Shown: piece after piece, positions 22,186 to 48,218 of the stretch | Layout: each line of letters opens with the position of its first letter | Numbering within the stretch: position 1 is the first letter of the stretch | DNA from: the human T2T-CHM13v2.0 reference genome, Homo sapiens | DNA: 64,000 nucleotides | Assembly: GCF_009914755.1 (NCBI RefSeq) | Contig: NC_060947.1 | Reading direction: 5' to 3' (one strand) | Notes under the pieces: model-generated | What the model was told of the DNA's origin: nothing | Seen by the model: the letters and a program-made list of their open reading frames with translations, nothing else | Database searches by the model: none | Made by a program: the position numbers and the translations under genes

Positions 22186-22399
22186 TTACCCAATAGTTTT
22201 TAAACTCTGTGAGACTTCAGCATTTTATACTGTTCTAGTGGGCTAGGGAAAAGCCATGTGTGATAGCACTGAATCCTACATCTCCCACTTCAAACAGAGC
22301 AGCTCAACTTTTATTTGTTTCTGCGTATATTGGAGGGTTGTATAAGGTCTGATCAAAAATCGGAAGGCTTCTGCTGTTAAATTTTGAAAACCAACTTAC

Positions 22400-23432: not shown

Positions 23433-23944
23433 TTCACCAAACTATTCTGACTCTATAATTTTATGTAATAAGTAATTGATGCCAGAGTGATCTAATAAAG
23501 TTCATAATTCTAGTTAAGATTCTAATTAATTGTGACATAAAACTTGTACTATAAATTATTGAGCCCACATTTCAAGAAGGTTTTAAGACTTAACATACTT
23601 ATACACTTTCTAACACATAAGTGCTATTGAGAAAAAATTATCTGAACTATCGTGAAAGAGGGCCAAAGACACACAATCCTATGCGGAAGGCTGAAAAACT
23701 AAACTTAATTATTCCTAGACATATTGAACTATGGAAATTGTCATGTGCTATAATTATTATGTTTTAAAAGTTCAAGAAACTTTGTAAAATATCAAAATCA
23801 TATACATTATGCATATATATATATGAAGAAATTATATACATGCAGTTTTGGATATATGTGCAAAGGAGAAATTATATGATATGTACATATGCACATATAT
23901 TATATATATTTTTATATATTCATACTGCTTACAAACAATATATG

Positions 23945-24293
23945 CAGTTGGCCTTCTGTATGAGTGGGTTTTGCAGCCATGGGTTTCATGTCAGTGAATT
24001 CAACCAAATCAGAAAAACAAATATTCAGCAAAATACTCCCACAAAGTTCCAAAAAGCAGAAGTTGAATTTGCCACACTCTGAGTACTATCTTGGATCCAT
24101 GTGAATGACGTGATGTGTAGGCATTGTATTAGGTATTATAAGTAATCTAGAGATTATCTAAAGCATGTGAGAGGATGTGCATAGGTTATATGCAAATACT
24201 TCATCATTCTATATAAGGACTTGGGCATTCACAGATTTTATTACTTGAGGGCCACCTTAGCACCAATTATTCATAAATACCAAGGGACAACTG
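23945..24293. mobile_element. MER2/MER2B (TcMar-Tigger) element
   Basis: TIRs cagttggcctt / aagggacaactg; gtattaggtattataagtaatctagagat core. Confidence 0.8.
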
Positions 24294-24495
24294 GACATTT
24301 ATGATACAGAACACAAGATCATAAGTAGTTTTGAAATTGTATTGAATATTGAGCAAAAATAAAAATATGCATTCTATAAGCTCTGACTTTGTTGAGAAAT
24401 TTATAATCATAAGCTTACAAAGTTTATAGGCTCTAAGGAGTTACTATTCATTTCCTCCTTTTACAGTTGCCTCACAGAGTGCTTCTGTCCACAGC

Positions 24496-25430
24496 ATATA
24501 TTTATATATTATATTTATATATATTATTAAATATATACTTATATATTATATTTATATATATTATTAAATATATATTTATATATTATATTTATATATATTA
24601 TTAAATATATATTTATGTATTATATTTATATATATTATTAAATATATATTTATGTATTATATTTATATATATTATTAAATATATATTTATATATTATATT
24701 TATATATTATTAAATATATATTTATATATTATATTTATATATATTATTAAATATATATTTATATATTATATTTATATATATTATTAAATATATATTTATA
24801 TATTATATTTATATATTATTAAATATATATTTATATATTATATTTATATATTATTAAATATATATTTATATATTATATTTATATATTATTAAATATATAT
24901 TTATATATTATATTTATATATATTATTAAATATATATTTATATATTATATTTATATATATTATTAAATATATATTTATATATTATATTTATATATATTAT
25001 TAAATATATATTTATATATTATAGTTTATATATTATTAAATATATATTTATATATTATATTTTATATATTATTAAATATATATTTAAATATTATATTTTA
25101 TGTTATTAAATATATATTTCTATAGTATATTTTTATATGTTATTAAATATATATTTATATAGTATGTTTATATATATTATTAAATATATATTTATATAGT
25201 ATATTTTTATATGTTATTAAATATATATTTATATAGTATGTTTATATATATTATTAAATATATATTTATATAGTATATTTATATATTATATTTATATATT
25301 ATTAAATATGTATATATTATATTTATATATATCTTTATGTATGTATATATTATATTTATATATCGTTAAATATGTGCATATATATTATATTTATATATCG
25401 TTAAATACATATGTATATATTATATTTATA
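24496..25430. repeat. Almost pure-AT minisatellite, 37-bp unit (35-bp variants), TATATTATTAAATATATATTTATATATTATATTTATA
   Basis: Roughly 25 tandem units read directly; the last units gain C/G (tatcgttaaatatgtgca, tatcgttaaatacatatg). Confidence 0.95.
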
Positions 25431-28400
25431 GGTGTCGTAAAATACCGACGTATATATTATATTTATAGGGGTTGTAAAATACCGACATATATATTATATT
25501 TATAGGGGTCGTAAAATACCGATGTATATATTATATTTATAGGGGTCGTAAAATACTGAAGTATATATTATATTTATAGGTATCGTAAAACACCGATGTA
25601 TATATTATATTTATAGGTATCGTAAAATACCGACGTATATATTATAGGTATCGTAAAATACCGACGTATATATTATATTTATAGGTGTCGTAAAATACCG
25701 ACGTATATGTTATATTCATCAGTGTCGTAAAATACCAACGTATATGTTATATTCGTAGGTGTCATAAAATACTGATGTATATGTTATATTCATAGGTGCC
25801 GTAAAATACCGACATATATGTTATATTCGTCGGTGTCATAAAATACCGACGTATATCTTATATTCGTCAGTGTCGTGAAATACCGACGTATATCTTTTAT
25901 TCGTCAGTGTAGTGAAACACCGACGTATATTTTTTATTTGCTGGTGTCGTAAAATACTGACGTATATCTTACATTTGCAGGTGTCGTAAAATACCGACGT
26001 ATAACTTATAATCGCAGGTGTCATAAAATACTGATGTAAATCTTATATTCGCTTGTATCATAAAATACTGACATATATTATGTTTATAGGTATCGTAAAA
26101 TACCGACGTATATATTATATTTATAGGTATCGTAAAATACCGCCGTATATATTATAGGTATCGTAAAATACCGACGTACATCGGTGTCATGAAATACCGA
26201 AGTATATCTTATATTCGTACGTGTTGTGAAATACCGACGTATATCTCATATTAGTCGGTGTCGTGAAATACCGACGTATATCTTTTATTCGTTGGTGTAG
26301 TGAAACACCGACATATATTTTTTATTTGCCGGTGTCGTAAAATACCGACGTATATCTTACATTCACAGGTGTCATAAAATACCGACGTATAACTATTCGC
26401 AGGTGTCATAAAATACCGACGTAAATCTTATATTCGCTTGTGTCATAAAATACCGAAATATATGTTATATTCACAGGTGCCATAAAATACCGATGTATAT
26501 GTTATATTCGTCGTTGTCATGAAACACCGACGTATACCTTATATTAGTCGGTGTCGTGAAATACCAACGTATATATTATATTTGTAGGTGTTGTAAAATA
26601 ACGTCATATATATTATATTTGTAGGTGTCGTAAAATACCGACGTATATAGTATAGGTGTCGTGAAATACCGACGTACATATTATATTCCTGGTGTCGCAA
26701 AATAACGACATATATATTACATTTGTAGGTGTCGTAAAATACCGACGTATATAGTATAGGTGTCGTGAAATACCAACGTATATCTTATATTCGTAGGTGT
26801 CGTGAAATTCCGTCGTATATGTTATATTCGTCGGTGTCGTAAAATACCGACGTGTATGTTATATTCGTCGCTGTCGTAAAATAAGGACATATATGTTACA
26901 TTCGTCGGTGTCATAAAATACCGATGTATATGTCACATTCGTCGTTGTCGTGAAATACCGACGTATACCTTATATTAGTCAGTGTCGTGAAATACCGACG
27001 TATATATTATATTTGTAGGTGTCATAAAATAACGTCATATATATTATATTTGTAGGTGTCGTAAAATACCGACGTATATAATATAGGTGTCGTGAAATAC
27101 CGACGTATGTATTATATTCGTAGGTGTCATGAAATTCCGTCGTATATGTTATATTCGTCGGTGTCGTAAAATACTGACGTATATGTTATATTCGTCGGTG
27201 TCGTAAAATACCGATATATATCTTAGATTCGTCGGTGTCATAAAATAAGGACGTATATGTTACATTCGTCAGTGTCATAAAATAACGACGTATATGTTAC
27301 ATTCGTCGTTGTCGTGAAATACCGACGTATACCTTATATTAGTCGGTGTCGTGAAATACCGGCGTATATATTATATTCATAGGTGTCGTAAAATAACGAC
27401 ATATATATTATATTTGTAGGTGTCGTAAAATACTGGCGTATATATTATAGTCTTCCGTGTCGTAAAATACCGACGTATTTGTTATAATCGTCGGCATCGT
27501 AAAATACCGACGTATATGTTATGTTCATCGGTGTCATAAAATAACAACATATATATTATATTTGTAGGTGTCGTAAAATACCGACATATATAGCATAGGT
27601 GTCGTGAAATACCGACGTATAATATTCGTAGGTGTCGTGAAATACCGACGTATATATTATATTCATAGGTGTCGTAAAATAACGACATATATATTATATT
27701 TGTAGGTGTCGTAAAATACCGACGTATATAGTATAGGTGTCGTGAAATACGGACGTATATATTATATTCGTAGGTGTCGTGAAATACCGACGTATATCTT
27801 ATATTCATAGGTGTCGTGAAATTCCGTCATATATGTTATATTCGTCGGTGTCGTAAAATACCAACGTATATCTAAGTCGGTGTCGTAAAATAAGGACGTA
27901 TATGTTACATTCGTCGGTGTCGTAAAATATCGACGTATATGTTACGTTCGTGGTTGTCGTGAAATACCGACTTATACCTTATATTAGTCAGTGTCGTGAA
28001 ATACCGGCGTATATTTTATATTCGTAGGTAAAATAACGACATATATATTATATTTGTAGGTGTCGTGAAATACCGACGTATATCTTATATTCATAGGTGT
28101 CGTGAAATTCCGTCGTATATGTTATATTCGTCGGTGTCGTAAAATACGGACGTATGTGTTATATTCGTCGGTGTCGTAAAATACCGACGTATATCTTAGA
28201 TTCGTCGGTGTCGTAAAATACCGACGTATATCTTAGATTCGTCGGTGTCGTAAAATACCGACATATATCTTAGATTCGTCGGTGTCGTAAAATACCGACG
28301 TATATGTTATATTCGTTGCTGTCGTAAAATACCGACGTATATCTTAGATTCGACAGTGTCGTAAAATACCGAAGTATATCTTATATTCGATGATGTCGTA

Positions 28401-31400
28401 AAATACCGACGTATATCTTGTATTCACTGATGTCGTAAAATACTGACGTTTTTCTTACTTTCGCAGGTGTCATAAAATACAGGTGTATAACATAATCGCA
28501 GGTGTCATAAAATACCGACATAAATCTTATATTCGCTTGTGTCATAAAATACCGAAATATATGTTATATTCACAGGTCTCATAAAATACCGATGTATATG
28601 TTATATTCGTCGGTGTCGTAAAATACCGACGTATATCTTAGATTCGTCGGTGTCGTAAAATACCGACGTATATGTTATATTCGTCGATGTCGTAAAATAC
28701 CGACGTATATCTTAGATTCGACGGTGTCGTAAAATACCGAAGTATATCTTATATTCGAGGATGTCGTAAAATGCCGACGTATATCTTATATTCACTGGTG
28801 TCGTAAAATACTGACGTGCATCTTACATTCACAGGTGTCATAAAATACAGGTGTATAACTTATAATCACAGGTGTCGTAAAATACCGACGTAAATGTTAT
28901 ATTCGCTTGTGTCATAAAATACCGAAATATATGTTATATTCACAGGTGTCATAAAATACCGATGTATAATATTCGTCGGTGTCGTAAAATACCGACGTAT
29001 ATGTTATATTCGTAGGTGCCGTAAAATACCGACGTATATGTTATATTCTTCCGTGTCGTAAAATACCGACGTATCTGTTATATTCGTCGGTGTCGTAAAA
29101 TACCGACGTATATGTTATATTCGTCGCTGTCGTAAAATACCGACGTATATCTTAGATTCGACGGTGTCGTAAAATACCGAAGTATATCTTATATTCGAGG
29201 ATGTCGTAAAATGCCGACGTATTTTACGTATGTATATGTTGTATTCGTAGGTGCCGTAAAATACCGACGTATCTGTTATATTCTTCCGTGTCGTAAAATA
29301 CCGACGTATCTGTTATAATCGTCGGTGTCGTAAAATACCGACGTATGTATCATAGTCTTCCGTGTCGTAAAATACCGACGTATTTGTTATAATCGTCAGC
29401 GTCTTAAAATACCGACGTATATGTTATATTTGTCGGTGTCGTAAAATAACGACATATATGTTATATTTGTAGGTATCGTAAAATACCGACGTATATAGCA
29501 TAGGTGTCGTGAAATACCGACGTATATATTATATTCGTAGGTGTCGTGAAATACCGACGTATATCTTATATTCGTAGGTGTAGTAAAATAACGACGTATA
29601 TGTTTTATTCGTTGGTGTCGTGAAATAACGACGCATATGTTACATTCGTTGGTGTCGTAAAATACCGACGTATATAGTATAGGTGTCGTGAAATACCAAC
29701 GTATATCTTATATTCGTAGGTGTCGTGAAATTCCGTCGTATATGTTATATTCGTTGGTGTCGTAAAATACCGACGTATATGTTATATTCGTCGGTGTCGT
29801 AAAATAAGGACGTATATGTTACATTCGTTGCTGTCATAAAATACCGACGTATATGTTACATTCGTCGTTGTCGTGAAATACCGACGTATACCTTATATTA
29901 GTCGGTGTCGTGAAATACCGACGTATATATTATATTCGTAGGTGTCATAAAATAACGTCATATATATTATATTTGTAGGTGTCGTAAAATACCGACGTAT
30001 ATAGTATAGGTGTCGTGAAATACCGACGTATATATTATATTCCTGGTGTCGTAAAATAACGACATATATAATATATTTCTACGTGTCGTAAAATACCGAC
30101 GTATATAGTATAGGTGTCGTGAAATACCGACGTATGTATTATATTCGTAGGTGTGAAATTCCCTCGTATATGTTGTATTCGTCGGTGTCGTAAAATACCG
30201 ACGTATATGTTTTATTCGTCGGTGTCGTAAAATACCAACAGATATCTTAGATTCGTCGGTGTCATAAAATAAGGACGTATATGTTACATTCGTCGGTGTC
30301 GTAAAATACCGACGTATAAGTTACATTCGTCGTTGTCGTGAAATACCGACGTATACCTTATATTAGTCGGTGTCGTGAAATACCGGCGTATATATTATAT
30401 TCGTAGGTGTCGTAAAATAATGACATATATATTATATTTGTAGGTGTCGTAAAATACCGACGTATATAGTATAGGTGTCGTGAAATACCGACGCATATAT
30501 TATATTCGTAGGTGTCGTGAAATACCAACGTATATCTTATATTCATAGGTGTCGTGAAATTCCGTCGTATATGTTATATTCGTAGGTGCCGTAAAATACC
30601 GACGTATCTGTTATATTCTTCCGTGTCGTAAAATACCGACGTATCTGTTATAATCGTCGGTGTCGTAAAATACCGACGTATATATTATAGTCTTCCGTGT
30701 CGTAAAATAACGACATATATATTATATTTGTAGGTGTCGTAAAATACCGACATATATAGCATAGGTGTCGTGAAATACCGACGTGTATATTATATTCGTA
30801 GGTGTCGTGAAATACCGACGTATATATAATATTCGTAGGTGTCATAAAATAACGACATATATATTATATTTGTAGGTGTCGTAAAATACCGACGTATATA
30901 GTATACGTGTCGTGAAATACCGACGTATATATTATATTCGTAGGTGTCGTGTAATACCAACATATATCTTGTATTCGTAGCTGTCGTGAAATTCCGTCGT
31001 ATATGTTATATTCGTCGGTGGCTTAAAATACCGACGTATATGTTGTATTCGTCGGTATCGTAAAATAAGGACGTATATGTTACATTCGTCGGTGTCATAA
31101 AATACCGACGTATACGTTACATTCGTCGTTGTCGTGAAATACCTACGTATACCTTATATCAGTCGGTGTCGTGAAATACCGATGTATATATTATATTCGT
31201 AGGTGTGGTAAAATAACGTCATATATATTATATTTGTAGGTGACGTAAAATACCGAAGTATATAGTATAGGTGTCGTGAAATACCGAAGTATATATTATA
31301 TTCCTGGTGTCGTAAAATAACGACATATATATTATATTTGTAGGTGTCGTAAAATACCGACGTATATAGTATAGGTGTCGTGAAATACCGACGTATGTAT

Positions 31401-34400
31401 TATATTCGTAGGTGTCGTGAAATTCCGTCGTATATGTTATATTCGTCGGTGTCGTAAAATACCGACGTGTATGTTATATTCGTCGGTGTCGTAAAATACC
31501 GACGTATATCTTAGATTCGTCGGTGTCATAAAATAAGGACGTATATGTTACATTCGTCAGTGTCGTAAAATACCGTCGTATATGTTACGTTCGTCGTTGT
31601 CGTGAAATACCGACGTATACCTTATATTAGTCGGTGTCGTGAAATACCGGCGTATATATTATATTCGTAGGTATCGTAAAATAACGACATATATATTATA
31701 TTTGTAGGTGTCGTGAAATACCAACGTATATCTTATATTCATAGATGTCGTGAAATACCGACGTATATATTATATTCGTAGGTGTCGTGAAATACCAACG
31801 TATATCTTATATTCGTAGGTGTCGTGAAATTCCGTCGTATATGTTATATTCGTCGGTGTCGTAAAATATCGACGTATACGTTATATTCGTCGGTCGTAAA
31901 ATACCGACGTATATGTTATATTCGTTGGTGATGTATATGTTATATTCGTCGCTGTCGTAAAATACCGACGTATATCTTAGATTCGTCGGTGTCGTAAAAT
32001 ACCGACGTATATGTTATATTCTTCCGTGTCGTAAAATACCGACGTATCTGTTATATTCGTCGGTGTCGTAAAATACCGACGTATATGTTATATTCATCGC
32101 TGTCATAAAATACCGACTTATATCTTAGATTCGGCGGTGTCGTAAAATACCGAAGTATATCTTATATTCGATGATGTCGTAAAATACCGACGTATATCTT
32201 ATATTCACTGGTGTCGTAAAATACTGACGTATATCTTATATTCACTGGTGTCGTAAAATACTGACGTATATCTAACTTTCGCAGGTGTCATAAAATACAG
32301 GTGTATAACTTATAATCTCAGGTGTCGTAAAATACCGACGTAAATCTTATATTCGCTTGTGTCATAAAATACCGAAATATATGTTATATTCACAGGTGTC
32401 ATAAAATACCGATTTATATGTTATATTCGTCGGTGTCGTAAAATACCGACGTATATGTTTTATTCGTCAGTGTCGTAAAATAACGACGCATATGTTACAT
32501 TCGTTTGTGTCGTAAAATACCGACGTATATAGTATAGGTGTCGTGAAATACTGACGTACATATTATATTCGTAGGTGTCGTGAAATACCAACGTATATCT
32601 TATACTCGTAGGTGTCGTGAAATTCCGTCGTATATGTTATATTCGTCGGTGTCGTAAAATACCGACGTGTATGTTGTATTCGTCGGTGTCATAAAATACC
32701 GACGTATATGTTACATTCGTCGTTGTCGTGAAATACCTACGTATATCTTATATTAGTCGGTGTCGTGAAATACCGACGTATATATTATATTCGTAGGTGT
32801 CGTAAAATAACGTCATATATATTATATTTGTAGGTGTCGTAAAATACCGACGTATATAGTATAGGTGTCGTGAAATACCAACGTATGTATTATATTCGTA
32901 GGTGTCGTGAAATTCCATCGTATATGTTATATTCGTCGGTGTCATAAAATACCGACGTGTATGTTATATTCGTCGGTGTCGTAAAATACCGACGTATATC
33001 TTAGATTCGTCGGTGTCATAAAATAAGGACGTATATGTTACATTCGTCGGTGTCGTAAAATACCGACGTATATGTTACGTTCGTCGTTGTGGTGAAATAC
33101 CGACGTATACCTTATATTAGTCGGAGTCGTGAAATACCGGCGTATATATTATATTCATAGGTGTCGTAAAATAACGACATATATATTATATTTGTAGGTG
33201 TCATGAAATACCGACGTATATCTTATATTCATAGGTGTCGTGAAATTCTGTCGTATATGTTATATTCGTCGGTGTCGTAAAATACCGACGTGTACGTTAT
33301 ATTCGTCGCTGTCGTAAAATACCGACGTATATCTTAGATTCGTCGGTGTCGTAAAATACCGACGTATATGTTATATTCGTCGCTGTCGTAAAATACCGAC
33401 GTATATCTTAGATTCGACAGTGTCGTAAAATACCGAAGTATATCTTATATTCGATGATGTCATAAAATACCGACGTATATCTTGTATTCACTGGTGTCGT
33501 AAAATACTGACGTTTTTCTTACTTTCGCAGGTGTCATAAAATACAGGTGTGTAACTTATAATCGCAGGTGTCGTAAAATACCGACATAAATCTTATATTC
33601 GCTTGTGTCATAAAATACCGAAATATATGTTATATTCACAGGTGTCATAAAATACCGATGTATATGTCATATTCGTAGGTGTCGTGAAATACCGACGTAT
33701 ACATTATATTCGTAGGTGTCGTAAAATAACGACATATATATTATATTTGTAGTTGTCGTAAAATACCGACGTATATAGCATAGGTGTCGTGAAATACCGA
33801 CGTATATATTATATTCGTAGGTGTCGTGAAATACCAACGTATATCTTATATTCGTAGGTGTCGTGAAATTCCGTCGTATATGTTATATTCGTCGGTGTCG
33901 TAAAATACCGACGTATATGTTATATTCGTCGGTGTCGTAAAATAAGGTCGTATATTTTACATTCGTTGGTGTCATAAAATACCGACGTATATGTTACATT
34001 TGTCGTTGTCGTGAAATACCGACGTATACCTTATATTAGTCGGTGTCGTGAAATACCGAAGTATATATTATATTTGTAGGTGTCGTAAAATACCGTCATA
34101 TATATTATATTTGTAGGTGTCGTAAAATACCGACGTATATAGTATAGGTGTCGTGAAATACCGACGTATATATTATATTCCTGGTGTCGTAAAATAACGA
34201 CATATATATTATATTTGTACGTGTCATAAAATACCGACGTATATAGCATAGGTGTCGTGAAATACCGACGTATGTATTATATTCGTAGGTGTCGTGAAAT
34301 TCCATCGTATATGTTGTATTCGTCGGTGTCGTAAAATACCGACGTATATGTTTTATTCGTCGGTGTCGTAAAATACCAACAGATATCTTAGATTCGTCGG

Positions 34401-37400
34401 TGTCATAAAATAAGGACGTATATGTTACATTCGTCATTGTGAAATACCAAAGTATACCTTATATTAGTCGGTGTCGTGAAATACCAGCGTATATATTATA
34501 TTCGTAGGTGTCGTAAAATAACGACATATATATTATATTTGTAGGTGTCGTAAAATACCGACGTATATAGTATAGGTGTCATGAAATACCGACGCATATA
34601 TTATATTCGTAGGTGTCGTGAAATACCAACGTATATCTTATATTCGTAGGTGTCGTGAAATTCCGTCGTATATGTTATATTCGTCGGTGTCGTAAAATAC
34701 CGACGTATTTATTATAGTCTTCCGTGTCGTAAAATACCGACGTATTTGTTATAATCGTCGGCATCGTAAAATACCGACGTATATGTCATGTTCGTCAGTG
34801 TCGTAAAATAACGACATATATATTATATTTGTAGGTGTCGTAAAATACCGACGTATATAGCATAGGTGTCGTGAAATACCGACCTATATATTATATTCGT
34901 CGGTGTCGTGAAATACCAACGTATATCTTACATTGGTAGGTGTCGTGAAATTCCGTCGTATATGTTATATTCGTCGGTGTCGTAAAATACCGACGTATAT
35001 GTTGTATTCGTCGGTGTCGTAAAATACCGACGTATATGTTATATTCTTCGGTGTTGTAAAATACCGACGTATATCTTAGATTCGTCACTGTCGTAAAATA
35101 CCGACATATATGTTATATTCGTCGGTGTCGTAAAATACCGACGTATATCTTAGATTCGTCGGTGTCGTAAAATACCGACATATATGTTATATTTGTTGGT
35201 GATGTATATGTTATATTCGTTGGTGTCGTAAAATACCGACGTATATCTTAGATTCGTCGGTGTCATAAAATACAGAAGTATATCTTATATTCGATGATGT
35301 CGTAAAATACCGACGTATATCTTATATTCACTGGTGTCGTAAAATACTGACTTGTATCTTACTTTCGCAGGTGTCATAAAATACAGGTGTATAACTTATA
35401 ATCTCAGGTGTCGTAAAATACCGACGTAAATCTTATATTCGCTTGTGTCATAAAATACCGAAATATATGTTATATTCACAGGTGTCATAAAATACCGATG
35501 TATATGTTATATTCGTCGGTGTTGTAAAATACCAATGTATCTGTTATATTCGTCGGTGTCGTAAAATACCGACGTATATGTTTTATTCGTCAGTGTCGTA
35601 AAATAACGACGCATATGTTACATTCGTCGGTGTCGTAAAATACCGACGTATATAGTATAGGTGTGAAATACCGACGTATATATTATATTCGTAGGTGTCG
35701 TAAAATAACGACATATATATTATATTTGTAGGTGTCGTAAAATACCGACGTATATAGTATAGGTGTCGTGAAATACCGAAGTATATATTATATTCCTGGT
35801 GTCGTAAAATAACGACATATATATTATATTTGTAGGTGTCGTAAAATACCGACGTATATACTATAGGTGTCGTGAAATACCAACGTATGTATTATATTCG
35901 TTGGTGTCGTGAAATTCCGTTGTATATGTTATATTCGTCGGTGTCGTAAAATACCAACGTATATCTTAGATTCGTCAGTGTCATAAAATAAGGACGTATA
36001 TGTTACATTCGTCGGTGTCGTAAAATACCGACGTATATGTTACGTTCGTCGTTGTGGTGAAATACCGACGTATACCTTATATTAGTTGGTGTCGTGAAAT
36101 ACCGGCGTATATATTATATTCGTAGGTGTCGTAAAATGACGACATATATATTATATTTGTAAGTGTCATGAAATACAGACGTATATCTTATATTCATCGG
36201 TGTCGTGAAATTCCGTCGTATATGCTATACTCGTCGGTGTCGTAAAATACCGAAGTATATGTTATATTCGTCGCTGTCGTAAAATACCGACGTATATCTT
36301 AGATTCGACAGTTTCGTAAAATACCGAAGTATATCTTATATTCGATGATGTCGTAAAATACCGACGTATATCTTGTATTCACTGGTGTCGTAAAATACTG
36401 ACGTTTTTCTTACTTTCGCAGGTGTCATAAAATACAGGTGTGTAACTTATAATCGCAGGTGTCGTAAAATACCGACATAAATCTTATATTCGCTTGTGTC
36501 ATAAAATACCGAAATATATGTTATATTCACAGGTGTCAGAAAATACCGATGTATATGTTATATTCGTAGGTGTCGTGAAATACCGACGTATACGTTATAT
36601 TCGTAGGTGTCGTAAAATAACGACATATATATTATATTTGTAGGTGTCGTAAAATACCGACATATATAGCATAGGTGTCGTGAAATACCGACGTGTATAT
36701 TATATTCATAGGTGTCGTGAAATACCGACGTATATATAATATTCGTAGGTGTCATAAAATAACGACATATATATTATATTTGTAGGTGTCGTAAAATACC
36801 GACGTATATAGTATACGTGTCGTGAAATACCGACGTATATATTATATTCGTAGGTGTCGTGAAATACCAACATATATCTTGTATTCGTAGCTGTCGTGAA
36901 ATTCCGTCGTATATGTTATATTCGTCGGTGGCTTAAAATACCGACGTATATGTTGTATTCGTCGGTATCGTAAAATAAGGACGTATATGTTACATTCGTC
37001 GGTGTCATAAAATACCGACGTATACGTTACATTCGTCGTTGTCGTGAAATACCTACGTATACCTTATATCAGTCGGTGTCGTGAAATACCGATGTATATA
37101 TTATATTCGTAGGTGTGGTAAAATAACGTCATATATATTATATTTGTAGGTGACGTAAAATACCGAAGTATATAGTATAGGTGTCGTGAAATACCGAAGT
37201 ATATATTATATTCCTGGTGTCGTAAAATAACGACATATATATTATATTTGTAGGTGTCGTAAAATACCGACGTATATAGTATAGGTGTCGTGAAATACCG
37301 ACGTATGTATTATATTCGTAGGTGTCGTGAAATTCCGTCGTATATGTTATATTCGTCGGTGTCGTAAAATACCGACGTGTATGTTATATTCGTCGGTGTC

Positions 37401-40400
37401 GTAAAATACCGACGTATATCTTAGATTCGTTGGTGTCATAAAATAAGGACGTATATGTTACATTCGTCAGTGTCGTAAAATACCGTCGTATATGTTACGT
37501 TCGTCGTTGTCGTGAAATACCGACGTATACCTTATATTAGTCGGTGTCGTGAAATACCGGCGTATATATTATATTCGTAGGTGTCGTAAAATAACGACAT
37601 ATATATTATATTTGTAGGTGTCGTGAAATACCAACGTATATCTTATATTCATAGATGTCGTGAAATACCGACGTATATATTATATTCGTAGGTGTCGTGA
37701 AATACCAACGTATATCTTATATTCGTAGGTGTCGTGAAATTCCGTCGTATATGTTATATTCGTCGGTGTCGTAAAATATCGACGTATACGTTATATTCGT
37801 CGGTCGTAAAATACCGACGTATATGTTATATTCGTTGGTGATGTATATGTTATATTCGTCGCTGTCGTAAAATACCGACGTATATCTTAGATTCGTCGGT
37901 GTCGTAAAATACCGACGTATATGTTATATTCTTCCGTGTCGTAAAATACCGACGTATCTGTTATATTCGTCGGTGTCGTAAAATACCGACGTATATGTTA
38001 TATTCATCGCTGTCATAAAATACCGACTTATATCTTAGATTCGGCGGTGTCGTAAAATACCGAAGTATATCTTATATTCGATGATGTCGTAAAATACCGA
38101 CGTATATCTTATATTCACTGGTGTCGTAAAATACTGACGTATATCTTATATTCACTGGTGTCGTAAAATACTGACGTATATCTTACTTTCGCAGGTGTCA
38201 TAAAATACAGGTGTATAACTTATAATCTCAGGTGTCGTAAAATACCGACGTAAATCTTATATTCGCTTGTGTCATAAAATACCGAAATATATGTTATATT
38301 CACAGGTGTCATAAAATACCGATTTATATGTTATATTCGTCGGTGTCGTAAAATACCGACGTATATGTTTTATTCGTCAGTGTCGTAAAATAACGACGCA
38401 TATGTTACATTCGTTTGTGTCGTAAAATACCGACGTATATAGTATAGGTGTCGTGAAATACTGACGTACATATTATATTCGTAGGTGTCGTGAAATACCA
38501 ACGTATATCTTATACTCGTAGGTGTCGTGAAATTCCGTCGTATATGTTATATTCGTCGGTGTCGTAAAATACCGACGTGTATGTTGTATTCGTCGGTGTC
38601 ATAAAATACCGACATATATGTTACATTCGTCGTTGTCGTGAAATACCTACGTATATCTTATATTAGTCGGTGTCGTGAAATACCGACGTATATATTATAT
38701 TCGTAGGTGTCGTAAAATAACGTCATATATATTATATTTGTAGGTGTCGTAAAATACCGACGTATATAGTATAGGTGTCGTGAAATACCAACGTATGTAT
38801 TATATTCGTAGGTGTCGTGAAATTCCATCGTATATGTTATATTCGTCGGTGTCATAAAATACCGACGTGTATGTTATATTCGTCGGTGTCGTAAAATACC
38901 GACGTATATCTTAGATTCGTCGGTGTCATAAAATAAGGACGTATATGTTACATTCGTCGGTGTCGTAAAATACCGACGTATATGTTACGTTCGTCGTTGT
39001 GGTGAAATACCGACGTATACCTTATATTAGTCGGAGTCGTGAAATACCGGCGTATATATTATATTCATAGGTGTCGTAAAATAACGACATATATATTATA
39101 TTTGTAGGTGTCATGAAATACCGACGTATATCTTATATTCATAGGTGTCGTGAAATTCTGTCGTATATGTTATATTCGTCGGTGTCGTAAAATACCGACG
39201 TGTACGTTATATTCGTCGCTGTCGTAAAATACCGACGTATATCTTAGATTCGTCGGTGTCGTAAAATACCGACGTATATGTTATATTCGTCGCTGTCGTA
39301 AAATACCGACGTATATCTTAGATTCGACAGTGTCGTAAAATACCGAAGTATATCTTATATTCGATGATGTCATAAAATACCGACGTATATCTTGTATTCA
39401 CTGGTGTCGTAAAATACTGACGTTTTTCTTACTTTCGCAGGTGTCATAAAATACAGGTGTGTAACTTATAATCGCAGGTGTCGTAAAATACCGACATAAA
39501 TCTTATATTCGCTTGTGTCATAAAATACCGAAATATATGTTATATTCACAGGTGTCATAAAATACCGATGTATATGTCATATTCGTAGGTGTCGTGAAAT
39601 ACCGACGTATACATTATATTCGTAGGTGTCGTAAAATAACGACATATATATTATATTTGTAGTTGTCGTAAAATACCGACGTATATAGCATAGGTGTCGT
39701 GAAATACCGACGTATATATTATATTCGTAGGTGTCGTGAAATACCAACGTATATCTTATATTCGTAGGTGTCGTGAAATTCCGTCGTATATGTTATATTC
39801 GTCGGTGTCGTAAAATACCGACGTATATGTTATATTCGTCGGTGTCGTAAAATAAGGACGTATATTTTACATTCGTTGGTGTCATAAAATACTGACGTAT
39901 ATGTTACATTTGTCGTTGTCGTGAAATACCGACGTATACCTTATATTAGTCGGTGTCGTGAAATACCGAAGTATATATTATATTTGTAGGTGTCGTAAAA
40001 TACCGTCATATATATTATATTTGTAGGTGTCGTAAAATACCGACGTATATAGTATAGGTGTCGTGAAATACCGACGTATATATTATATTCCTGGTGTCGT
40101 AAAATAACGACATATATATTATATTTGTACGTGTCATAAAATACCGACGTATATAGCATAGGTGTCGTGAAATACCGACGTATGTATTATATTCGTAGGT
40201 GTCGTGAAATTCCATCGTATATGTTGTATTCGTCGGTGTCGTAAAATACCGACGTATATGTTTTATTCGTCGGTGTCGTAAAATACCAACAGATATCTTA
40301 GATTCGTCGGTGTCATAAAATAAGGACGTATATGTTACATTCGTCATTGTGAAATACCAAAGTATACCTTATATTAGTCGGTGTCGTGAAATACCAGCGT

Positions 40401-43400
40401 ATATATTATATTCGTAGGTGTCGTAAAATAACGACATATATATTATATTTGTAGGTGTCGTAAAATACCGACGTATATAGTATAGGTGTCATGAAATACC
40501 GACGCATATATTATATTCGTAGGTGTCGTGAAATACCAACGTATATCTTATATTCGTAGGTGTCGTGAAATTCCGTCGTATATGTTATATTCGTCGGTGT
40601 CGTAAAATACCGACGTATTTATTATAGTCTTCCGTGTCGTAAAATACCGACGTATTTGTTATAATCGTCGGCATCGTAAAATACCGACGTATATGTCATG
40701 TTCGTCAGTGTCGTAAAATAACGACATATATATTATATTTGTAGGTGTCGTAAAATACCGACGTATATAGCATAGGTGTCGTGAAATACCGACCTATATA
40801 TTATATTCGTCGGTGTCGTGAAATACCAACGTATATCTTACATTGGTAGGTGTCGTGAAATTCCGTCGTATATGTTATATTCGTCGGTGTCGTAAAATAC
40901 CGACGTATATGTTGTATTCGTCGGTGTCGTAAAATACCGACGTATATGTTATATTCTTCGGTGTTGTAAAATACCGACGTATATCTTAGATTCGTCACTG
41001 TCGTAAAATACCGACATATATGTTATATTCGTCGGTGTCGTAAAATACCGACGTATATCTTAGATTCGTCGGTGTCGTAAAATACCGACATATATGTTAT
41101 ATTTGTTGGTGATGTATATGTTATATTCGTTGGTGTCGTAAAATACCGACGTATATCTTAGATTCGTCGGTGTCATAAAATACAGAAGTATATCTTATAT
41201 TCGATGATGTCGTAAAATACCGACGTATATCTTATATTCACTGGTGTCGTAAAATACTGACTTGTATCTTACTTTCGCAGGTGTCATAAAATACAGGTGT
41301 ATAACTTATAATCTCAGGTGTCGTAAAATACCGACGTAAATCTTATATTCGCTTGTGTCATAAAATACCGAAATATATGTTATATTCACAGGTGTCATAA
41401 AATACCGATGTATATGTTATATTCGTCGGTGTCGTAAAATACCAATGTATCTGTTATATTCGTCGGTGTCGTAAAATACCGACGTATATGTTTTATTCGT
41501 CAGTGTCGTAAAATAACGACGCATATGTTACATTCGTCGGTGTCGTAAAATACCGACGTATATAGTATAGGTGTGAAATACCGACGTATATATTATATTC
41601 GTAGGTGTCGTAAAATAACGACATATATATTATATTTGTAGGTGTCGTAAAATACCGACGTATATAGTATAGGTGTCGTGAAATACCGAAGTATATATTA
41701 TATTCCTGGTGTCGTAAAATAACGACATATATATTATATTTGTAGGTGTCGTAAAATACCGACGTATTTAGTATAGGTGTCGTGAAATACCGACGTATGT
41801 ATTATATTCGTAGGTGTCATGAAATTCCGTCGTATATGTTATATTCGTCGGTGTCGTAAAATACCGACGTATATGTTATATTCATCGGTGTCGTAAAATA
41901 CCGACAGATATCTTAGATTCGTCAGATTCGTCGGTGTCATAAAATAAGGATGTATATGTTACATTCGTCAGTGACGTAAAATACCGACGTATACCTTATA
42001 TTAGTCGGTGTCGTGAAATACCGGCGTATATATTATATTCGTAGGTGTCGTAAAATAACGACATATATATTATATTTGTAGGTGTCGTAAAATACCGACG
42101 TATATAGTATAGGTGTCGTGAAATACCGAAGTATATATTATATTCGTAGGTGTCGTGAAATACCAACATATATCTTATATTCATAGATGTCGTGAAATTC
42201 CGTCGTATATGTTATATTCGTCGGTGTCGTAAAATACCGACGTATATGTTATATTCGTCGGTGTCGTAAAATACCGACGGATATGTTATATTCGTCGCTG
42301 TCATAAAATACCGACGTATATCTTAGATTCGACGGTGTCGTAAAATACCAAAGTATATCTTATATTCGATGATGTCGTAAAATACCGACGTATATCTTAT
42401 ATTCACAGGTGTTGTAAAATACTGACATATATCGTACTTTCGCAGGTGTCATAAAATACCGATGTATATGTTACATTCGTTGGTGTCGTAAAATACCGAC
42501 ATATACGTCATATTCGTTACTGTTGTAAAATACCAACATATATGTTATATTCGTCGGTGTCGTAAAATACCAACTTATATCTTTTATTCGTCGGTGTTGT
42601 GAAATACTGACCTATATCTTTTATTGGTCAGTGTCGTGAAATACCAACGTATATCTTATATTCGTAGGTTTCGTGAAACACCGACGTATATATTATATTC
42701 GTATGTGTCGTGAAATACCGACGTATATCTTATATTCTTAGGTGTCATCAAATGCCGACATATATATTATTATCTTAGATTCGTCGGTGTCGTAAAATAC
42801 CGACGTATATGTTATATTTATAGGTGTCATAAAATACCGACGTATATCTTATATTCATAGGTGTCATCAAATGCCGACATATATATTATATTCGTAGGTG
42901 TCATAAAATAACGACGTATATATTATGTTTGTTGGTGTTGTAAAGTACCGACGTATATATTATAGGTGTCGTAAAATACTGACCTACATATTTTATTTAT
43001 AGGTGTTGTAAAATACCAATGTATATATTATAGGTGTCGTAAAATACCGACGTATATATTATATTTATAGGTGTCATAAAATACCGACGTATATATTATA
43101 TTTATAGGTGTTGTAAAATACCGACATATTTATTATAGGTATCGTAAAATACTGACGTATATATTATATTTATAGGTATCGTAAAATACCGACATATATA
43201 TTATATTTATAGGTATCGTAAAATACCGACATACATATTACAGGTGTCGTAAAATACCGACGTATAGATTATATTTGTAGGTGTTGTAAAACACCGACGT
43301 GTATATTATATTTATAGGTGTCGTAAAATAACGACATATATATTATATTTATAGGTGTCGTTAAATACCGATATATATATTATATTTATATTTATCGTTA

Positions 43401-43409
43401 AATACCGAC
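25431..43409. repeat. ~18 kb CpG-dense, AT-rich satellite/VNTR; 37-bp consensus GGTGTCGTAAAATACCGACGTATATGTTATATTCGTC (~500 monomers by length), with 31-bp variants and higher-order structure
   Basis: Continuous head-to-tail monomers; variants recur in fixed orders; no interspersed TE. Confidence 0.98.
30697..41767. repeat. Internal duplication with 5,910-bp period (30697-35857 matches 36607-41767)
   Basis: ORF-track peptides recur at exactly +5910 (32748/38658, 34031/39941, 34105/40015, 34891/40801); line-by-line near identity. Confidence 0.92.
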
Positions 43410-43465
43410 ATATATATTATATTTATATATATCATTAAATATATATTTATATAATATATTTAATA
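43410..43465. repeat. Short AT-only terminal monomers of the array
   Basis: tatatcattaaatatatatttatataatatattt matches the left-hand AT unit. Confidence 0.8.
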
Positions 43466-46400
43466 AATGTTTATTGAATTTCATGGAAATTTTACCCAGG
43501 CAGAGTTGGGCATTCTGTTTTAATGCCAAACAAACATGAAACAAACTTACTCCACACAACCCTGATAATAACCAGCCAATATTTTCTTTTTTTTTCTTTC
43601 TTAGCCCATTTATTTGCCCATACATCTGTAATAGAGACACACTGTGAGTCAGGTTTACATTTTCCCAGCAAACAGAATCATCAAACAATAGGATTTTAAA
43701 GATCTGTCTTGCTTGTATATAGGTTGTATTTCCCTAATTTTGCATATGTTAGCATTTCACCTGTTATCATCTGTGGAGTTCCCTAGATTCTGTTTCCTTC
43801 TGAAATCTGATTTCAAAAGAGGAGGAATGTTTATAAAATGTTTTATGTGCCATATCTTATATAAATATGAAAACCACATTTTCATATGGGAAAAAAATTA
43901 TAATTATTATACCTTCCTTACAATTACGTTGCTCAAAGAAAGTTAATAACTTATCCATATCATTGAGCTTTTCAGTGCCAGAGTTTAGATTTTTATCCCG
44001 GTCTGCTTAACTCCAATGCGATTCTCTTTTCTAAAGCATAAGACCAAACAAAACTATTGTTATCTTATAAAGATTACATTTCCATTGGAAATGTCACATA
44101 ATAGAAATTAAAATCTAGTATAAAGTAGGCCACTATAATTCTTTGATTCAAAAATATGAAATGGACTTTTTCCCTCTGTATCAACCTTCCATGCACCATT
44201 TCCCAACATTTTTCATTCTTTTCAAGCTGATATTCACAAAACTTTAAGTTAGAATAATGATTGTGAAACAGCATGAAACAAAGAAAGCTAAAAATACCCT
44301 AAAAGGTGAATGAATACAGGAAAACACTTTGCATAACTTGGTAAGGATGAATTTAAAATAGTTTATATTGCATAACTTTTAAGACAAAAAAACTATTGCA
44401 GAATACAATTTTCCTGCACATTACATTGAACATTTTATGCCAATTACATTAACATTTTTCCGATTCATGTTTTAGCCTGCAATCATGCACTAGATCTCAG
44501 AAAACTCATATGAAAAATAAAACAAAAACAAACCGACATGAAATAGACAATTGCTGGTCACAGTGGTAAGATAATAATTTTATGCCATAAGAAAACACAA
44601 CCAGAATATTTTCCTAGGTAATAAACTGTGTTTCCTTTTGAAATATTTACTACTAGACACTTCATCTCAATCCAGTTGAAACAACCTTTAAAACATCCCA
44701 AAGGAGTGCCATACTCTGTTCCAGAGAATTTTTGTATGTGGCTTCTCTTCGACACCCCTTAGTAATCTATTGCTAGTTTTCTCTATCTTCTCTTTTTCCT
44801 TGTTTTGTTCAACCTGAAGTGTCTCTCTTCCCACAGGCTTTAAAACATTTATATTAGTGTTTGTTGGGAGGGAATCTTGTAATGAATACATTATTAATAA
44901 ATCATTAATAACATTTATTAATGGATCATTAATATTTGCTACCTAGATATCTGGCTTTCTTTTTGTGGGTTTCATTTTCCATACTACCATGTGATCATTT
45001 AAGTCAAAGATGGAAAATAGATTTCATTTTGTGTTCCATATTCAAATAGATGGTAGTGGCATGCTACATTGAGATAAGAGTAGGAGATTATGTCTTCTTT
45101 AAATGAAGAAAAGTTACATGAACATAGATAGTTGGGTGGGTGGCTAGTGATGACAGTGTGCTATGTATTTCCCATTTTGATTGAAAATGTAGTCACTATT
45201 GAAAATATTTTCCTGTTGTATTAATTGAATATGCCCCCAAGATACACCTCTCTGATCTAGTCATACAAACTGTGAGAAGAATCTAGGATTTCTTGTAACT
45301 GCTGTGTTGTCCTAGACTGCAATATATTCCATACTAGCATTTATTGAATGCAGACTCTGCATTAGGCACAATTTTAAGTTGTTTACAGGTGTGTTAGTTA
45401 CTGTTATTATCTTCAATGTGCAGATTAGGTAACTGAGGAAACGGGGTTAGGTAAAAACACTTCAATTTCCTTCAACATATACTTTCTTTAGATAAAATGT
45501 TTTTGAGGAGTATAAGGCTATGGAAGAACAGGCAGCATTCTTGTTCCTGAAATGGTTAGTTAAATGTAAGTACCATTTATTGGAATTGATTTCAAGGCCA
45601 TAATTCACAAGTCAGACAGTGAACAATCTTTACCCTTGTACAGGATGCCTAAATTTTCTTAATTTCTCCATTGGACAGACAATACTTGGGAATCATCTAT
45701 GAAGTTGGTTTAAAAAGTTCAACTCTTTCAAGTTGTTATATTTAAAAAGATCATTATGACTAACAACCAATTCACTTGCTGTGAGAAGAGGTGGATGTGA
45801 GTCATAAAATAACTTTTAAGTCAGAAAATTGGATTTAATTCAGACTTTTCCTCCTCTTACATCAATTGAATGACAGGGATAAATGAACTTGATTTAGCTA
45901 GATTTAGAATTGGAGTTGTCTTTCTTATCTATCAAAAGCATGGCAGGACTGATCATCTGGATATCATCAGCTGATGATCAAACATGTCAAATTAATGCAG
46001 AAAAAATAAAATAATTTGTGGCATTATATTCTATAATTTATTATGTTGATTTATGACACTTTATTTATTGCAAAAATATGGCATCAAAATTTGGAATTTT
46101 ATCTACATTACGAATTGGGTAAAGTAACTTTTAATTACATTGTATACTTTAAGAAATGTGTTAGCCATTCTACTGCAATTGTAAAAATATGTCCACCCAT
46201 TAAATTTAAAACCTCCTAATTGAGATAATTCTAATACAATTTTTAAAAATTCTTCAAAGCTTCAAAAACTTCATATTTCTGATCTTGTAATAAGTATAAA
46301 ACTAAGAGATGCTTTTTCTGTGTAAGCAATGATTGTTAATATAATAGCTATTGAGTTTTCTCTTTTAGTTGAAAGCATTGTATTTTGACATCAGAAGTTA

Positions 46401-47075
46401 CATGTGAAACAATAATTGTTATAATAATTTAATTACCCACTTTAAATGACCGTATATAATGTAGTTGCTAATATATGCTGTTTTTTCTACAGAACATCAT
46501 TGACAAGATTATGTACATATTCACTATTAGCTTCGAGAACTTTTTATGTACAAAAGGCTAGTAAAAGCGCATTCAAAATTACATGTTTTAGGCTGAGGTC
46601 TCACTCCTACAGTGCCTTCAGCAAAGTTTTTGGCCTCAGATCATATTCTCAGGCAAATTGTTTTCTATAAAAACTTCCTTTCTGTATTGAAAGGCTGAAG
46701 GAATAAAATAAGGAAAAATCCCTTCATTTCTCTCAGACAGTGCAAAGGGAGAAAAATTCTCTGGATAAATACACTGACAGTTTTATTTAATGATTTGAAT
46801 ATAAATTAAATAAGTGTTTAAGAAGTAGTTTAGCTAGTTATACACTTCCTTCATTTAGACAAATAATACAATCACATTTTTTGGCATTATTGGAAATAGC
46901 ACACAATTTAGGGTCAGTTATTTCTAATTCTGATCATTCAAATTTCAAGCTCTTTGACTTTCTATGTTTTTAACATTGGCCAAGTCATTAATCTCTTAAA
47001 TGTTCAATGTATTCAATTTAGAACTTTATAAAATGTATAAAATATAGCTAATAATACAGGTACAACCTACTTCAT

Positions 47076-48095: not shown

Positions 48096-48218
48096 CAGAA
48101 AATGCTTTATATAATGGCCAACAAAGACATATAATTTTAAAATATATGAATTTTCACTTTATTGATTTATTGGCTTTCAGTTCACAGTGATTTATGACAT
48201 AAAACTTATACATTTTCA

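What the first reader, a model, noticed from the sequence alone, without database searches (positions are those of the whole stretch)
24496..43465. A CpG-rich satellite that grades into a pure-AT repeat of identical 37-bp period: possible birth record of a satellite
Seen: the AT-only unit TATATTAT-TAAA-TATATATT-TATATA-TTATATTT-ATA aligns without gaps to the edge CpG unit GGTGTCGT-AAAA-TACCGACG-TATATA-TTATATTT-ATA, with the last 17 nt identical. Stepwise intermediates lie at the left boundary (tatcgttaaatatgtgca 25361, tatcgttaaatacatatg ~25396) and at the right boundary (ggtgtcgttaaataccgata, tttatcgttaaataccgaca, tatatcattaaatatatattt, 43353-43450). The interior gains two more CpGs (TTTATAGG to TTCGTCGG). 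Inference: since array edges are usually the oldest part, an AT minisatellite gained CpGs stepwise and the CpG-rich variants expanded ~20-fold. That runs against normal CpG decay and would need GC-biased conversion or preferential amplification. The reverse reading (edges decayed to AT) fits poorly with how homogeneous the AT block is, but is not excluded.
Basis: partly seen in the sequence, partly recalled or inferred. Interest (0 to 1): 0.9.

Follow-up and report, generated by a model that had tools for sequence, protein, structure and literature searches.

The report
Layered satellite at the X-transposed boundary
A 19-kb tandem repeat on the human X, with pure-AT units at both ends and a CpG-rich middle, lies where X-Y homology of the human-specific X-transposed region stops, and the Y copy, cut off inside the repeat, gives a dated second copy for following how the repeat changes.

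Summary
A head-to-tail array of 523 units of 37 bp spans window 24503-43460. It has 22 AT-only units on the left and 1.3 on the right, mosaic intermediates at both ends, "TTTATAGG" units inside them, and a CpG-rich core (CpG observed/expected 3.0 at 34% GC).

The family is not dispersed. All 445 forward genome matches of its 20-mer lie in this array or in one chrY array. That chrY copy (142 units) belongs to the X-transposed region. The right flank is 98.4-98.7% identical between X and Y. The X left flank has no Y copy. The Y array starts in mid-unit, joined to an Alu tail of Y ampliconic DNA through 4 bp of microhomology. So X-Y homology ends inside the array.

The right-hand gradient is also on Y, unit for unit, so it predates the transposition. 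The array interiors share no 1:1 orthology.

The same outer unit types at both ends, including transversion states absent from all 471 core units, favour the order AT-only, then intermediate, then CpG-rich (about 0.6). No outgroup could be examined. CpGs at the array edge diverge at the same rate as flank CpGs, so there is no sign of ongoing CpG gain.

The parts
22200..24495 (.). X-only left flank, outside X-Y homology
   Evidence: A genome search of 22200-24495 gives the self match plus 40 diverged dispersed-repeat matches at 66-77%, none on chrY. The last 120 bp match X only.
24496..25310 (+). Left AT-only block: a partial unit, then units 0-21 of the a-type TATATATTATATTTATATATATTATTAAATATATATT
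   Evidence: TRF row 1; unit table; GC 0.6%; no CpG in 24496-25343.
25311..25413 (+). Left mosaic intermediate units 22-24 (TATATCGTTAAATA...)
   Evidence: T at column 26 and CG at columns 23-24 are shared with the right-hand intermediates.
25414..25703 (+). Left block of e-type units 25-32 (TTTATAGG[T/G][G/A]TCGTAAAATACCGACG), including one 31-bp variant
25704..42805 (+). CpG-rich core, units 33-503 (TTCGT[A/C]GGTGTCGT[A/G]AAATACCGACG types), built of irregular segmental duplications
   Evidence: 1528 CpG in 17102 bp, observed/expected 3.0, GC 34.8%. Internal repeats of 0.6-1.3 kb at 91-97% at many offsets.
30630..35964 (+). First copy of a recent 5.9-kb tandem duplication inside the core
   Evidence: 99.49% to 36540-41874 over 5335 bp, 27 mismatches, no gaps, offset 5910. 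Only 9 differences in 30702-35844.
36540..41874 (+). Second copy of the 5.9-kb tandem duplication
42465..43460 (+). Right edge, orthologous unit for unit with the chrY array (L009 7028-7927)
   Evidence: Global alignment: 867 aligned bases, 29 mismatches, gap runs of 1, 37, 8, 74, 32, 5 and 5 bases.
42806..43336 (+). Right block of mainly e-type units 504-518
43337..43410 (+). Right mosaic intermediate units 519-520
   Evidence: The same two units are present on chrY (units 138-139).
43411..43460 (+). Right AT-only unit 521 plus partial unit 522
   Evidence: 36/37 identical to the left a-type consensus. chrY has the same unit with 2 mismatches.
43461..55851 (.). Unique right flank that is part of the X-transposed region
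   Evidence: 98.74% to chrY over 2070 bp. 98.38% and 98.74% over 8.6 and 3.5 kb. The first 130 bp match X and Y only.

Best explanation
This is a single-locus 37-bp satellite, 18.96 kb and 523 units long, in a gene desert of Xq21.3. It evolves by ordinary tandem-array dynamics. Unequal exchange and segmental duplication renew the interior quickly, and the outermost units are left almost untouched.

The array is therefore layered: AT-only units at both extremities, then mosaic intermediates, then TTTATAGG units, then a CpG-rich core. The most likely age order is AT-only first and CpG-rich last (inferred, about 0.6).

The array marks the proximal end of the human X-transposed region. The X-to-Y copy begins inside the array. 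On chrY a unit cut in mid-length is joined, through the 4-bp microhomology GGTG, to the T/G tail of an Alu at the inner end of an IR3-like ampliconic repeat. So a chromosome break fell inside the array, either at the transposition itself or in a later Y rearrangement, and was repaired by end joining or template switching (inferred).

Since the split the two copies have kept their shared right edge, gradient included. That edge mutated at the same per-site rates as the unique flank, with heavy CpG decay. The interiors were reshuffled beyond 1:1 orthology, and the X array gained a 5.9-kb duplication very recently.
For: **Array anatomy.**

**Single locus plus Y paralogue.**
- The 20-mer GGTGTCGTAAAATACCGACG with up to 2 mismatches occurs 445 times forward and once in reverse in the genome (reversed-pattern controls 3 and 12).
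- 351 of these are in the window and 94 in L009, which accounts for all 445.
- The AT-only 37-mer with up to 2 mismatches occurs only here (13) and at the Y right edge (1); the 6 hits elsewhere all have 3 mismatches, against controls of 3 and 2.

**X-Y homology ends inside the array.**
- The chrY array is at C24:6200825-6205927, 142 units.
- The right flank is 98.4-98.7% identical.
- The Y left flank has no match in the window, and the X left flank has no Y copy.

**The Y junction.**
- L009 1-2828 is 98.06% identical to an inverted copy at C24:9.937 Mb, and the homology stops at the junction.
- That second copy continues into an intact antisense Alu. The two sequences share ...GGGGTGGGGTG and then diverge into TCGTAAAATACC or GAGAAAAAG.

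**Edge stability and interior turnover.**

**Normal mutation at the edge.** CpG-context sites differ at 21/128 against 23/116 in the flank. Non-CpG sites differ at 8/739 against 64/8467 in the flank.

**Mirror-image layers.** T at column 26 is in 0 of 471 core units. It is in 21 of 22 left a-type units, 2 of 3 left intermediates (the third has a gap there), both right intermediates and the right a-type unit on X, and the same three unit positions on Y. TA at columns 14-15 is in 2 of 471 core units, 7 of 8 left e-type units and 7 of 15 right e-type units.

**Recent 5.9-kb duplication.**

**Papers.** Passages seen describe the XTR as a duplicative X-to-Y transposition followed by an inversion (10.1101/2022.12.01.518658). 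[quoted passage not shown]
Against: - No outgroup sequence was available, so the age order of the unit types rests on symmetry alone.
- The layering is not clean. e-type blocks lie inside the arrays (X units 43-45; Y units 82-111, flanked by core units on both sides).
- All changes from core to e-type to AT-only run G/C to A/T, the direction of the usual mammalian mutation bias. The path ATCGTT, ATCATT, ATTATT reads naturally as CpG decay.
- Fourteen to fifteen substitutions in 37 bp are far more than neutral point mutation gives in primate time, in either direction (my arithmetic).
- The Y truncation could be a later deletion or an IR3-linked rearrangement and not the original transposition breakpoint. 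The sequence that follows the junction in the second Y copy has no second copy of 90% or more anywhere, so this was not a simple insertion.
- Single-strand folds give only weak support for hairpins: z from +1.3 to -2.2, and AT-only units fold no better than shuffles.
Confidence: 0.7

Rival explanations
1. Reverse polarity. The CpG-bearing unit is ancestral, and the outer units are its oldest copies. They lost all G/C through AT-biased mutation, CpG decay and TA slippage. One such AT-only variant then expanded on the left.
For: Every difference from core to e-type to a-type is G/C to A/T except one A/T swap. CpGs here decay at the flank rate. TG and CA are the main variants at every CpG column. 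The right a-type unit keeps ATCATT where intermediates have ATCGTT and the left block has ATTATT. The left AT block is very homogeneous, so it expanded recently.
Against: Five of the 11 a/e differences are transversions. Columns 33-34 (CG against AT) and 36-37 (CG against TT) are not deamination products. The same a-type (36/37) and the same intermediate motif sit at both ends, which independent decay would not produce. Losing 10 of 10 G/C while changing 1 of 27 A/T needs far more time than the CpG retention of the neighbouring units allows (inference).
Confidence: 0.25
2. The 20-bp G/C-bearing half (GGTGTCGTAAAATACCGACG) entered an AT-only unit, or was replaced by AT sequence, in one or a few patch events such as templated repair or slippage. 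The intermediates would then be recombinants between the two unit types and not mutational steps.
For: All 11 differences lie in columns 18-37 and none in columns 1-17. By my arithmetic the chance of such clustering is C(20,11)/C(37,11) = 2.0e-4, or about 0.007 after allowing all 37 registers. Unit 520 reads as a-type-like on the left and e-type on the right; units 23 and 24 are patchworks.
Against: 9 of the 10 A/T positions in the variable half agree between the two types (P about 0.01), which argues for descent and not replacement. No donor for the 20-mer exists elsewhere in this genome.
Confidence: 0.2
3. The break inside the array is not the original X-to-Y transposition breakpoint. It is a later chrY event, a deletion or the rearrangement that shaped the IR3 arms, which removed the left part of a once complete Y copy.
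For: The junction coincides with the inner end of an IR3-like repeat arm. IR3/IR3 inversions are recurrent among human Y chromosomes (passages of 10.1101/2022.12.01.518658). The target-side continuation has no second copy, so sequence was lost.
Against: No X sequence proximal to the array is found anywhere on chrY. A single junction with 4-bp microhomology explains the data without a second event.
Confidence: 0.3
4. Assembly artefact: the array length or the 5.9-kb duplication is a mis-assembly of a shorter repeat.
For: The two 5.9-kb copies differ at only 9 sites over about 5.1 kb, the kind of repeat that assemblers can mis-join.
Against: The copies differ by discrete substitutions and have diverged borders. 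An independent chrY paralogue from another individual's assembly shows the same family and the same right edge. Read-level support could not be examined here.
Confidence: 0.03

Closest known systems
Layered expansion of satellite arrays (centromeric alpha satellite; unequal-crossover models of Smith and Stephan). Recalled, no paper read here.
   Same: Young homogenised units lie in the middle and older divergent units are pushed to both sides. Edges take little part in exchange. This was shown directly by the X-Y comparison.
   Different: This is a 19-kb euchromatic array of 37-bp units with no regular higher-order repeat. The layers differ in base composition (0% to about 35% GC), not only in random divergence.
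AT-rich minisatellites of the rare fragile sites FRA16B (33 bp) and FRA10B (about 42 bp). Recalled.
   Same: An AT-only unit of similar length that expands as a pure block (22 near-identical units), and a chromosome break within the array.
   Different: Most of this array is CpG-bearing. No cytogenetic fragility is known or tested. Folding gives no hairpin signal beyond composition for the AT units.
The human X-transposed region (XTR), Xq21.3 to Yp11.2.
   Same: The right flank and the array's right edge are X-Y paralogues at 98.4-98.7%, as published for the XTR (98.8% in a passage of PMC9187127).
   Different: The array is the boundary element itself: half in and half out. I found no paper that places the boundary in a tandem repeat. 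Skaletsky 2003, Ross 2005, Schwartz 1998 and Mumm 1997 could not be read.
CpG-rich X-linked macrosatellites such as DXZ4. Recalled.
   Same: A CpG-dense tandem array on the X, far from genes.
   Different: The unit is 37 bp, not 3 kb. GC is 34%, so it is not a CpG island. There is no evidence of CTCF binding or an epigenetic role, and CpGs decay at the flank rate.

Membership tests
Tandem satellite / minisatellite array | Head-to-tail copies of one unit with a constant period | tested here: met
   TRF period 37, 25.6 + 493.4 copies. 428 of 523 units are exactly 37 bp.
Higher-order-repeat satellite | A regular multi-unit period with much higher identity than the basic unit | tested here: not met
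   Period 111 gives 79% matches against 76% at period 37. Internal duplications lie at irregular offsets of 1261, 1489, 2877, 3033, 4138 and 5910 bp.
Dispersed satellite family | Copies at several unrelated loci | tested here: not met
   All 445 forward matches of the 20-mer lie in the X array (351) or its chrY paralogue (94). The a-type 37-mer with up to 2 mismatches occurs only at these loci.
CpG island (Gardiner-Garden and Frommer criteria, recalled) | GC above 50% and CpG observed/expected above 0.6 | tested here: not met
   Observed/expected is 3.0 but GC is only 34.8%.
X-transposed region (XTR) | An X-Y paralogue at about 99% identity, absent from other chromosomes | tested here: met
   Met for 43461 onward and for the array's right edge. 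Not met for sequence left of the array.
X-transposed region (XTR) | Human-specific: absent from the Y of other apes | not testable with these tools
   Only a passage of PMC11168930 was seen: no X-transposed regions on non-human ape Y chromosomes.
Palindromic or hairpin-forming fragile repeat | Single-strand folding clearly stronger than composition gives | tested here: inconclusive
   z ranges from +1.33 to -2.17 over 7 folds. The best has 7 of 200 shuffles folding at least as well. A perfect 7-bp inverted repeat CGTCGGT..ACCGACG is in 61 of 523 X units and 12 of 142 Y units.
Array born inside a MIR element | The flanks are the two adjoining parts of one MIR copy | not testable with these tools
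   This is a resemblance recalled from memory only. No repeat library is held, and flank searches found only X (left) or X and Y (right).

The most novel reading that the evidence does not exclude
The array is a true fossil series. An AT-only 37-bp minisatellite became step by step richer in G/C and CpG (0, then 1, then 4-6, then 10, then 12-14 G/C per unit), and each richer variant out-amplified its parent from the middle. That needs a bias such as GC-biased conversion during intra-array repair, or preferential amplification of hairpin-capable units like CGTCGGT..ACCGACG. The same instability made the array the breakpoint of the hominin-specific X-to-Y transposition.
Probability: 0.2. Interest if true: 0.75.

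Novelty: new member of a known kind. Interest (0 to 1): 0.55.

Why it matters
Two things follow.

First, the end of X-Y homology of the human-specific X-transposed region can be placed to the base. It lies inside a tandem repeat, with a microhomology junction to an Alu tail on the Y. This bears on how that 3-4-Mb transposition, or the rearrangement after it, happened. It also explains why read mapping and variant calls at this boundary will be unreliable.

Second, the X and Y copies are two samples of one satellite separated for a few million years, with a unique flank as an internal clock. They show directly that array edges are frozen and interiors are renewed, and that CpGs in the array decay at the ordinary rate. 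From CpG retention, the CpG-rich core should be only about one to two X-Y split times old (rough inference).

Tried and rejected
- **Dispersed family:** rejected.
- **Hairpins as a clear property of the units:** the folds are weak. AT-only units have z of -0.5 and 0.04; core segments run from +0.10 to -2.17. This is kept only as a possibility.
- **Mapping the Y breakpoint onto the X array:** the first Y units resemble X units 123-133 most closely, but with 16-30 mismatches per 222 bases. Later windows jump all over the array, so no position can be given.
- **Polarising CpG changes at the shared right edge:** transitions with the CpG only on Y number 12 and only on X number 4. Transversions with the CpG only on X number 5 and only on Y number 0. 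The totals are 12 against 9, with no outgroup. Five of the X-side losses fall at columns 36-37 of neighbouring units, so they are not independent. No direction can be read.
- **MIR origin of the flanks:** local and genome searches found nothing usable.
- **A simple insertion of X DNA into the IR3-like repeat:** rejected, because the continuation beyond the junction has no second copy of 90% or more.
- **Literature:** the unit sequence is in no held paper, and no paper was found on a 37-bp X repeat or on the base-level XTR boundary. Three look-ups failed because the papers are not held or the term was malformed.
- **bioRxiv supplements:** closed, including the T2T-Y sequence-class table. They may give the annotated XTR coordinates.
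Full report
**1. What is there**

TRF reports an AT-only 37-bp array at 24496-25430 (25.6 copies, 91% matches). It runs directly into a CpG-bearing 37-bp array at 25379-43423 (493.4 copies, 76% matches). GC falls to 0.6% in 24500-24999 and is 31-37% through the rest.

A wrap-around alignment to the TRF consensus cuts 24503-43460 into 523 units. Of these, 428 are exactly 37 bp and 37 are a recurrent 31-bp deletion form.

Reading the units in order gives this layout:
- Units 0-21 are AT-only (a-type).
- Units 22-24 are mosaic intermediates (i-type).
- Units 25-32 read TTTATAGG..TCGTAAAATACCGACG (e-type).
- Units 33-503 are the core. Columns 14-15 are CG in 280 of 471, columns 17-18 are CG in 162 of 471, and column 6 has become G or C in 307 of 471.
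- Units 504-518 are mainly e-type again.
- Units 519-520 are intermediates.
- Unit 521 is an a-type unit with one mismatch to the left consensus, and unit 522 is a 13-base stub.

- Identity is 26 of 37 in that register, against 19 at best in any other.
- Columns 1-17 are identical.
- 9 of the 10 A/T positions in the variable half agree (shuffle P = 0.0097).

The core has 1528 CpGs in 17.1 kb, observed/expected 3.0 at 34.8% GC. The flanks stand at 0.21 and 0.23.

**2. It is a single-locus family with one paralogue, on the Y**

The 20-mer GGTGTCGTAAAATACCGACG with up to two mismatches occurs 445 times forward and once in reverse in the whole assembly; the reversed-pattern controls give 3 and 12. 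The window holds 351 of these and the chrY locus L009 holds 94, which accounts for all 445.

The a-type 37-mer with up to two mismatches is found only in this array (13 times) and once at the Y copy's right edge. The six hits elsewhere all have three mismatches, against controls of 3 and 2. The refuting case of a dispersed family seeded from elsewhere is therefore excluded for this genome.

The hub's note that 25471-43465 is unmasked fits a repeat that belongs to no library family. I could not query Dfam.

**3. The array is the end of X-Y homology**

The chrY copy (G000:C24:6200825-6205927; L009 2825-7927) has 142 units.

- *Right side.* X and Y are collinear at 98.74% over 2.07 kb, and at 98.38% and 98.74% over a further 8.6 and 3.5 kb. 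This is the identity published for the X-transposed region (98.8%, passage of PMC9187127).
- *Left side.* The two loci share nothing. The Y flank has no match in the window. The X flank 22200-24495 finds only itself plus old dispersed repeats at 66-77%, none on chrY. The last 120 bp of the X left flank match X alone, whereas the first 130 bp of the right flank match X and Y.
- *Start of the Y array.* It begins at column 18 of a core-type unit.
- *The Y flank.* It is Y ampliconic sequence, with a 98-99% inverted second copy at C24:9.937 Mb and many copies at 84-89%. From the passages on IR3 in 10.1101/2022.12.01.518658 and recalled maps, I read it as the inner end of the distal IR3 arm. That label is my inference.
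- *The junction.* Homology between the two Y copies ends exactly there. The second copy runs on into an intact antisense Alu. The junction copy switches, after the shared ...TTTTTGGGGGGTGGGGTG, into TCGTAAAATACC. GGTG is common to the Alu tail and to the satellite unit, so the join has 4 bp of microhomology.
- *No simple insertion.* The sequence that follows the junction in the second copy has no other copy of 90% or more. The event was not a clean insertion into that repeat.

What is shown: present-day X-Y homology stops inside the array, at a microhomology junction.

What is inferred: this is the original transposition breakpoint and not a later Y deletion. I put the latter at about 0.3.

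**4. What the X-Y pair says about the array's dynamics**

*The right edge is frozen.* The last ~1 kb aligns unit for unit (X 42465-43460 with L009 7028-7927). There are 867 aligned bases, 29 mismatches and a few indels of one to two whole units. The e-type, intermediate and a-type units are all there on Y (units 125-141). The gradient therefore predates the split. Papers put the split at a few million years ago: about 6 Myr in a passage of PMC4065359, and 3-5 Myr recalled from Skaletsky 2003 and Ross 2005.

*Mutation rates at the edge equal those of the unique flank*.

| Site class | Array right edge | Unique flank | Fisher p |
|---|---|---|---|
| CpG-context | 21/128 (16.4%) | 23/116 (19.8%) | 0.51 |
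| Non-CpG | 8/739 (1.08%) | 64/8467 (0.76%) | 0.38 |

The array's CpGs behave like ordinary, presumably methylated, CpGs. Nothing suggests that CpGs are being gained now.

*The interiors have turned over.* The best X-Y matches are 86-94%, and windows of six units map in scattered order.

*The X array grew recently.* The segments 30630-35964 and 36540-41874 are 99.49% identical. Only 9 differences lie in about 5.1 kb of their central part, and five of them are CpG transitions. Scaled to the flank rates, this duplication is roughly 0.03-0.13 of the X-Y split age. The numbers are small, so this is inference.

*Rough age of the CpG-bearing units.* Retention of CG at the three CpG columns shared by e-type and core is 69-77% in the core and 15/28 to 24/28 in the X e-type edge units. 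With the flank's CpG loss rate, the CpG-bearing units would share ancestors only about one to two split times back. This is rough: amplified variants are not independent events, and methylation is unknown.

**5. Which came first**

*For AT-first.*
- The same unit types lie at both extremities in mirror order.
- The right a-type unit shares all five transversion states with the left block (36/37 identical).
- T at column 26 is in 0 of 471 core units but in the outermost units on both sides, and on Y.
- The intermediates on both sides share TATCGTTAAATAC.
- Independent decay at two ends would not produce this. The frozen-edge behaviour is now observed and not merely assumed.

*Against AT-first.*
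- Every step from core to e-type to a-type is G/C to A/T, the usual mutational direction.
- ATCGTT, ATCATT, ATTATT looks like CpG decay.
- e-type blocks also lie inside the arrays (X 43-45, Y 82-111).
- The homogeneity of the left block shows only a recent expansion.

*A problem for both directions.* Eleven differences packed into one 20-bp half, with none in the other 17 bp, are unlikely under scattered point mutation; my arithmetic gives about 0.007 after allowing all registers. Fourteen to fifteen substitutions in 37 bp are far beyond neutral change in primate time. Some accelerating process is needed: biased conversion, mutagenic repair inside the array, or a few patch or recombination events.

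I put AT-first layering at about 0.6, the reverse at about 0.25, and leave the mechanism of G/C gain open. A GC-biased process is not excluded, but no result here supports it.

**6. Hairpins and fragility**

The TTCGTCGG units carry a perfect 7-bp inverted repeat, CGTCGGT..ACCGACG, in 61 of 523 X units and 12 of 142 Y units. One such segment folds with z = -2.17. Other segments and the AT-only units fold no better than shuffles. A break did fall inside the array, but fragility remains a hypothesis.

**7. Comparison with what is known, and novelty**

In kind this is an ordinary locus-specific satellite that shows layered expansion, a pattern well described for centromeric arrays (recalled). Its AT-only block resembles the AT-rich minisatellites of FRA16B and FRA10B (recalled). 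It is not a CpG island, because GC is 34%.

I did not find the following in print:
- the unit itself;
- any 37-bp X repeat in T2T papers;
- a base-level account of the XTR boundary (passages).

The key older papers (Schwartz 1998, Mumm 1997, Skaletsky 2003, Ross 2005) and the T2T-Y supplement could not be read. The boundary may well be tabulated there without comment.

**Verdict.** The most useful new facts are the X-transposed-region boundary inside the array and the dated Y copy.

Noticed in passing
window 52079-52373: An Alu present on X but absent from the chrY paralogue. It is flanked by a 19-bp target-site duplication (TTACATAGTTAACATTTTT), and Y shows the empty site. It was therefore inserted on X after the X-to-Y transposition.
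   Followed up: yes
L009 1-2828 and L010 6125-8939 (chrY C24:6.198-6.201 Mb and 9.937-9.940 Mb): The Y sequence joined to the array is a multi-copy Y ampliconic family. It has one inverted copy at 98-99%, about 17 further chrY matches at 84-89%, and a relative on contig C3 near 149.55 Mb at 79-82%.
   Followed up: partly
L010 about 5800-6125 (minus strand): An intact antisense Alu whose T-tail has mutated to a T/G run. The same tail is the chrY side of the X-Y junction.
   Followed up: partly
window 24380-24495 and 43461-43560: From memory only, the two unique flanks look like adjoining parts of one antisense MIR element. That would mean the array arose at a point inside an ancient repeat. It could not be tested without a repeat library.
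   Followed up: partly
window 43461-52078 against chrY: In the unique X-Y flank, CpG-context sites are about 26 times more diverged than other sites (19.8% against 0.76%). This is a convenient internal clock for the region.
   Followed up: yes
L009 623-731: A compound A-rich (AAAC)n and (AC)n microsatellite in the Y ampliconic flank.
   Followed up: no
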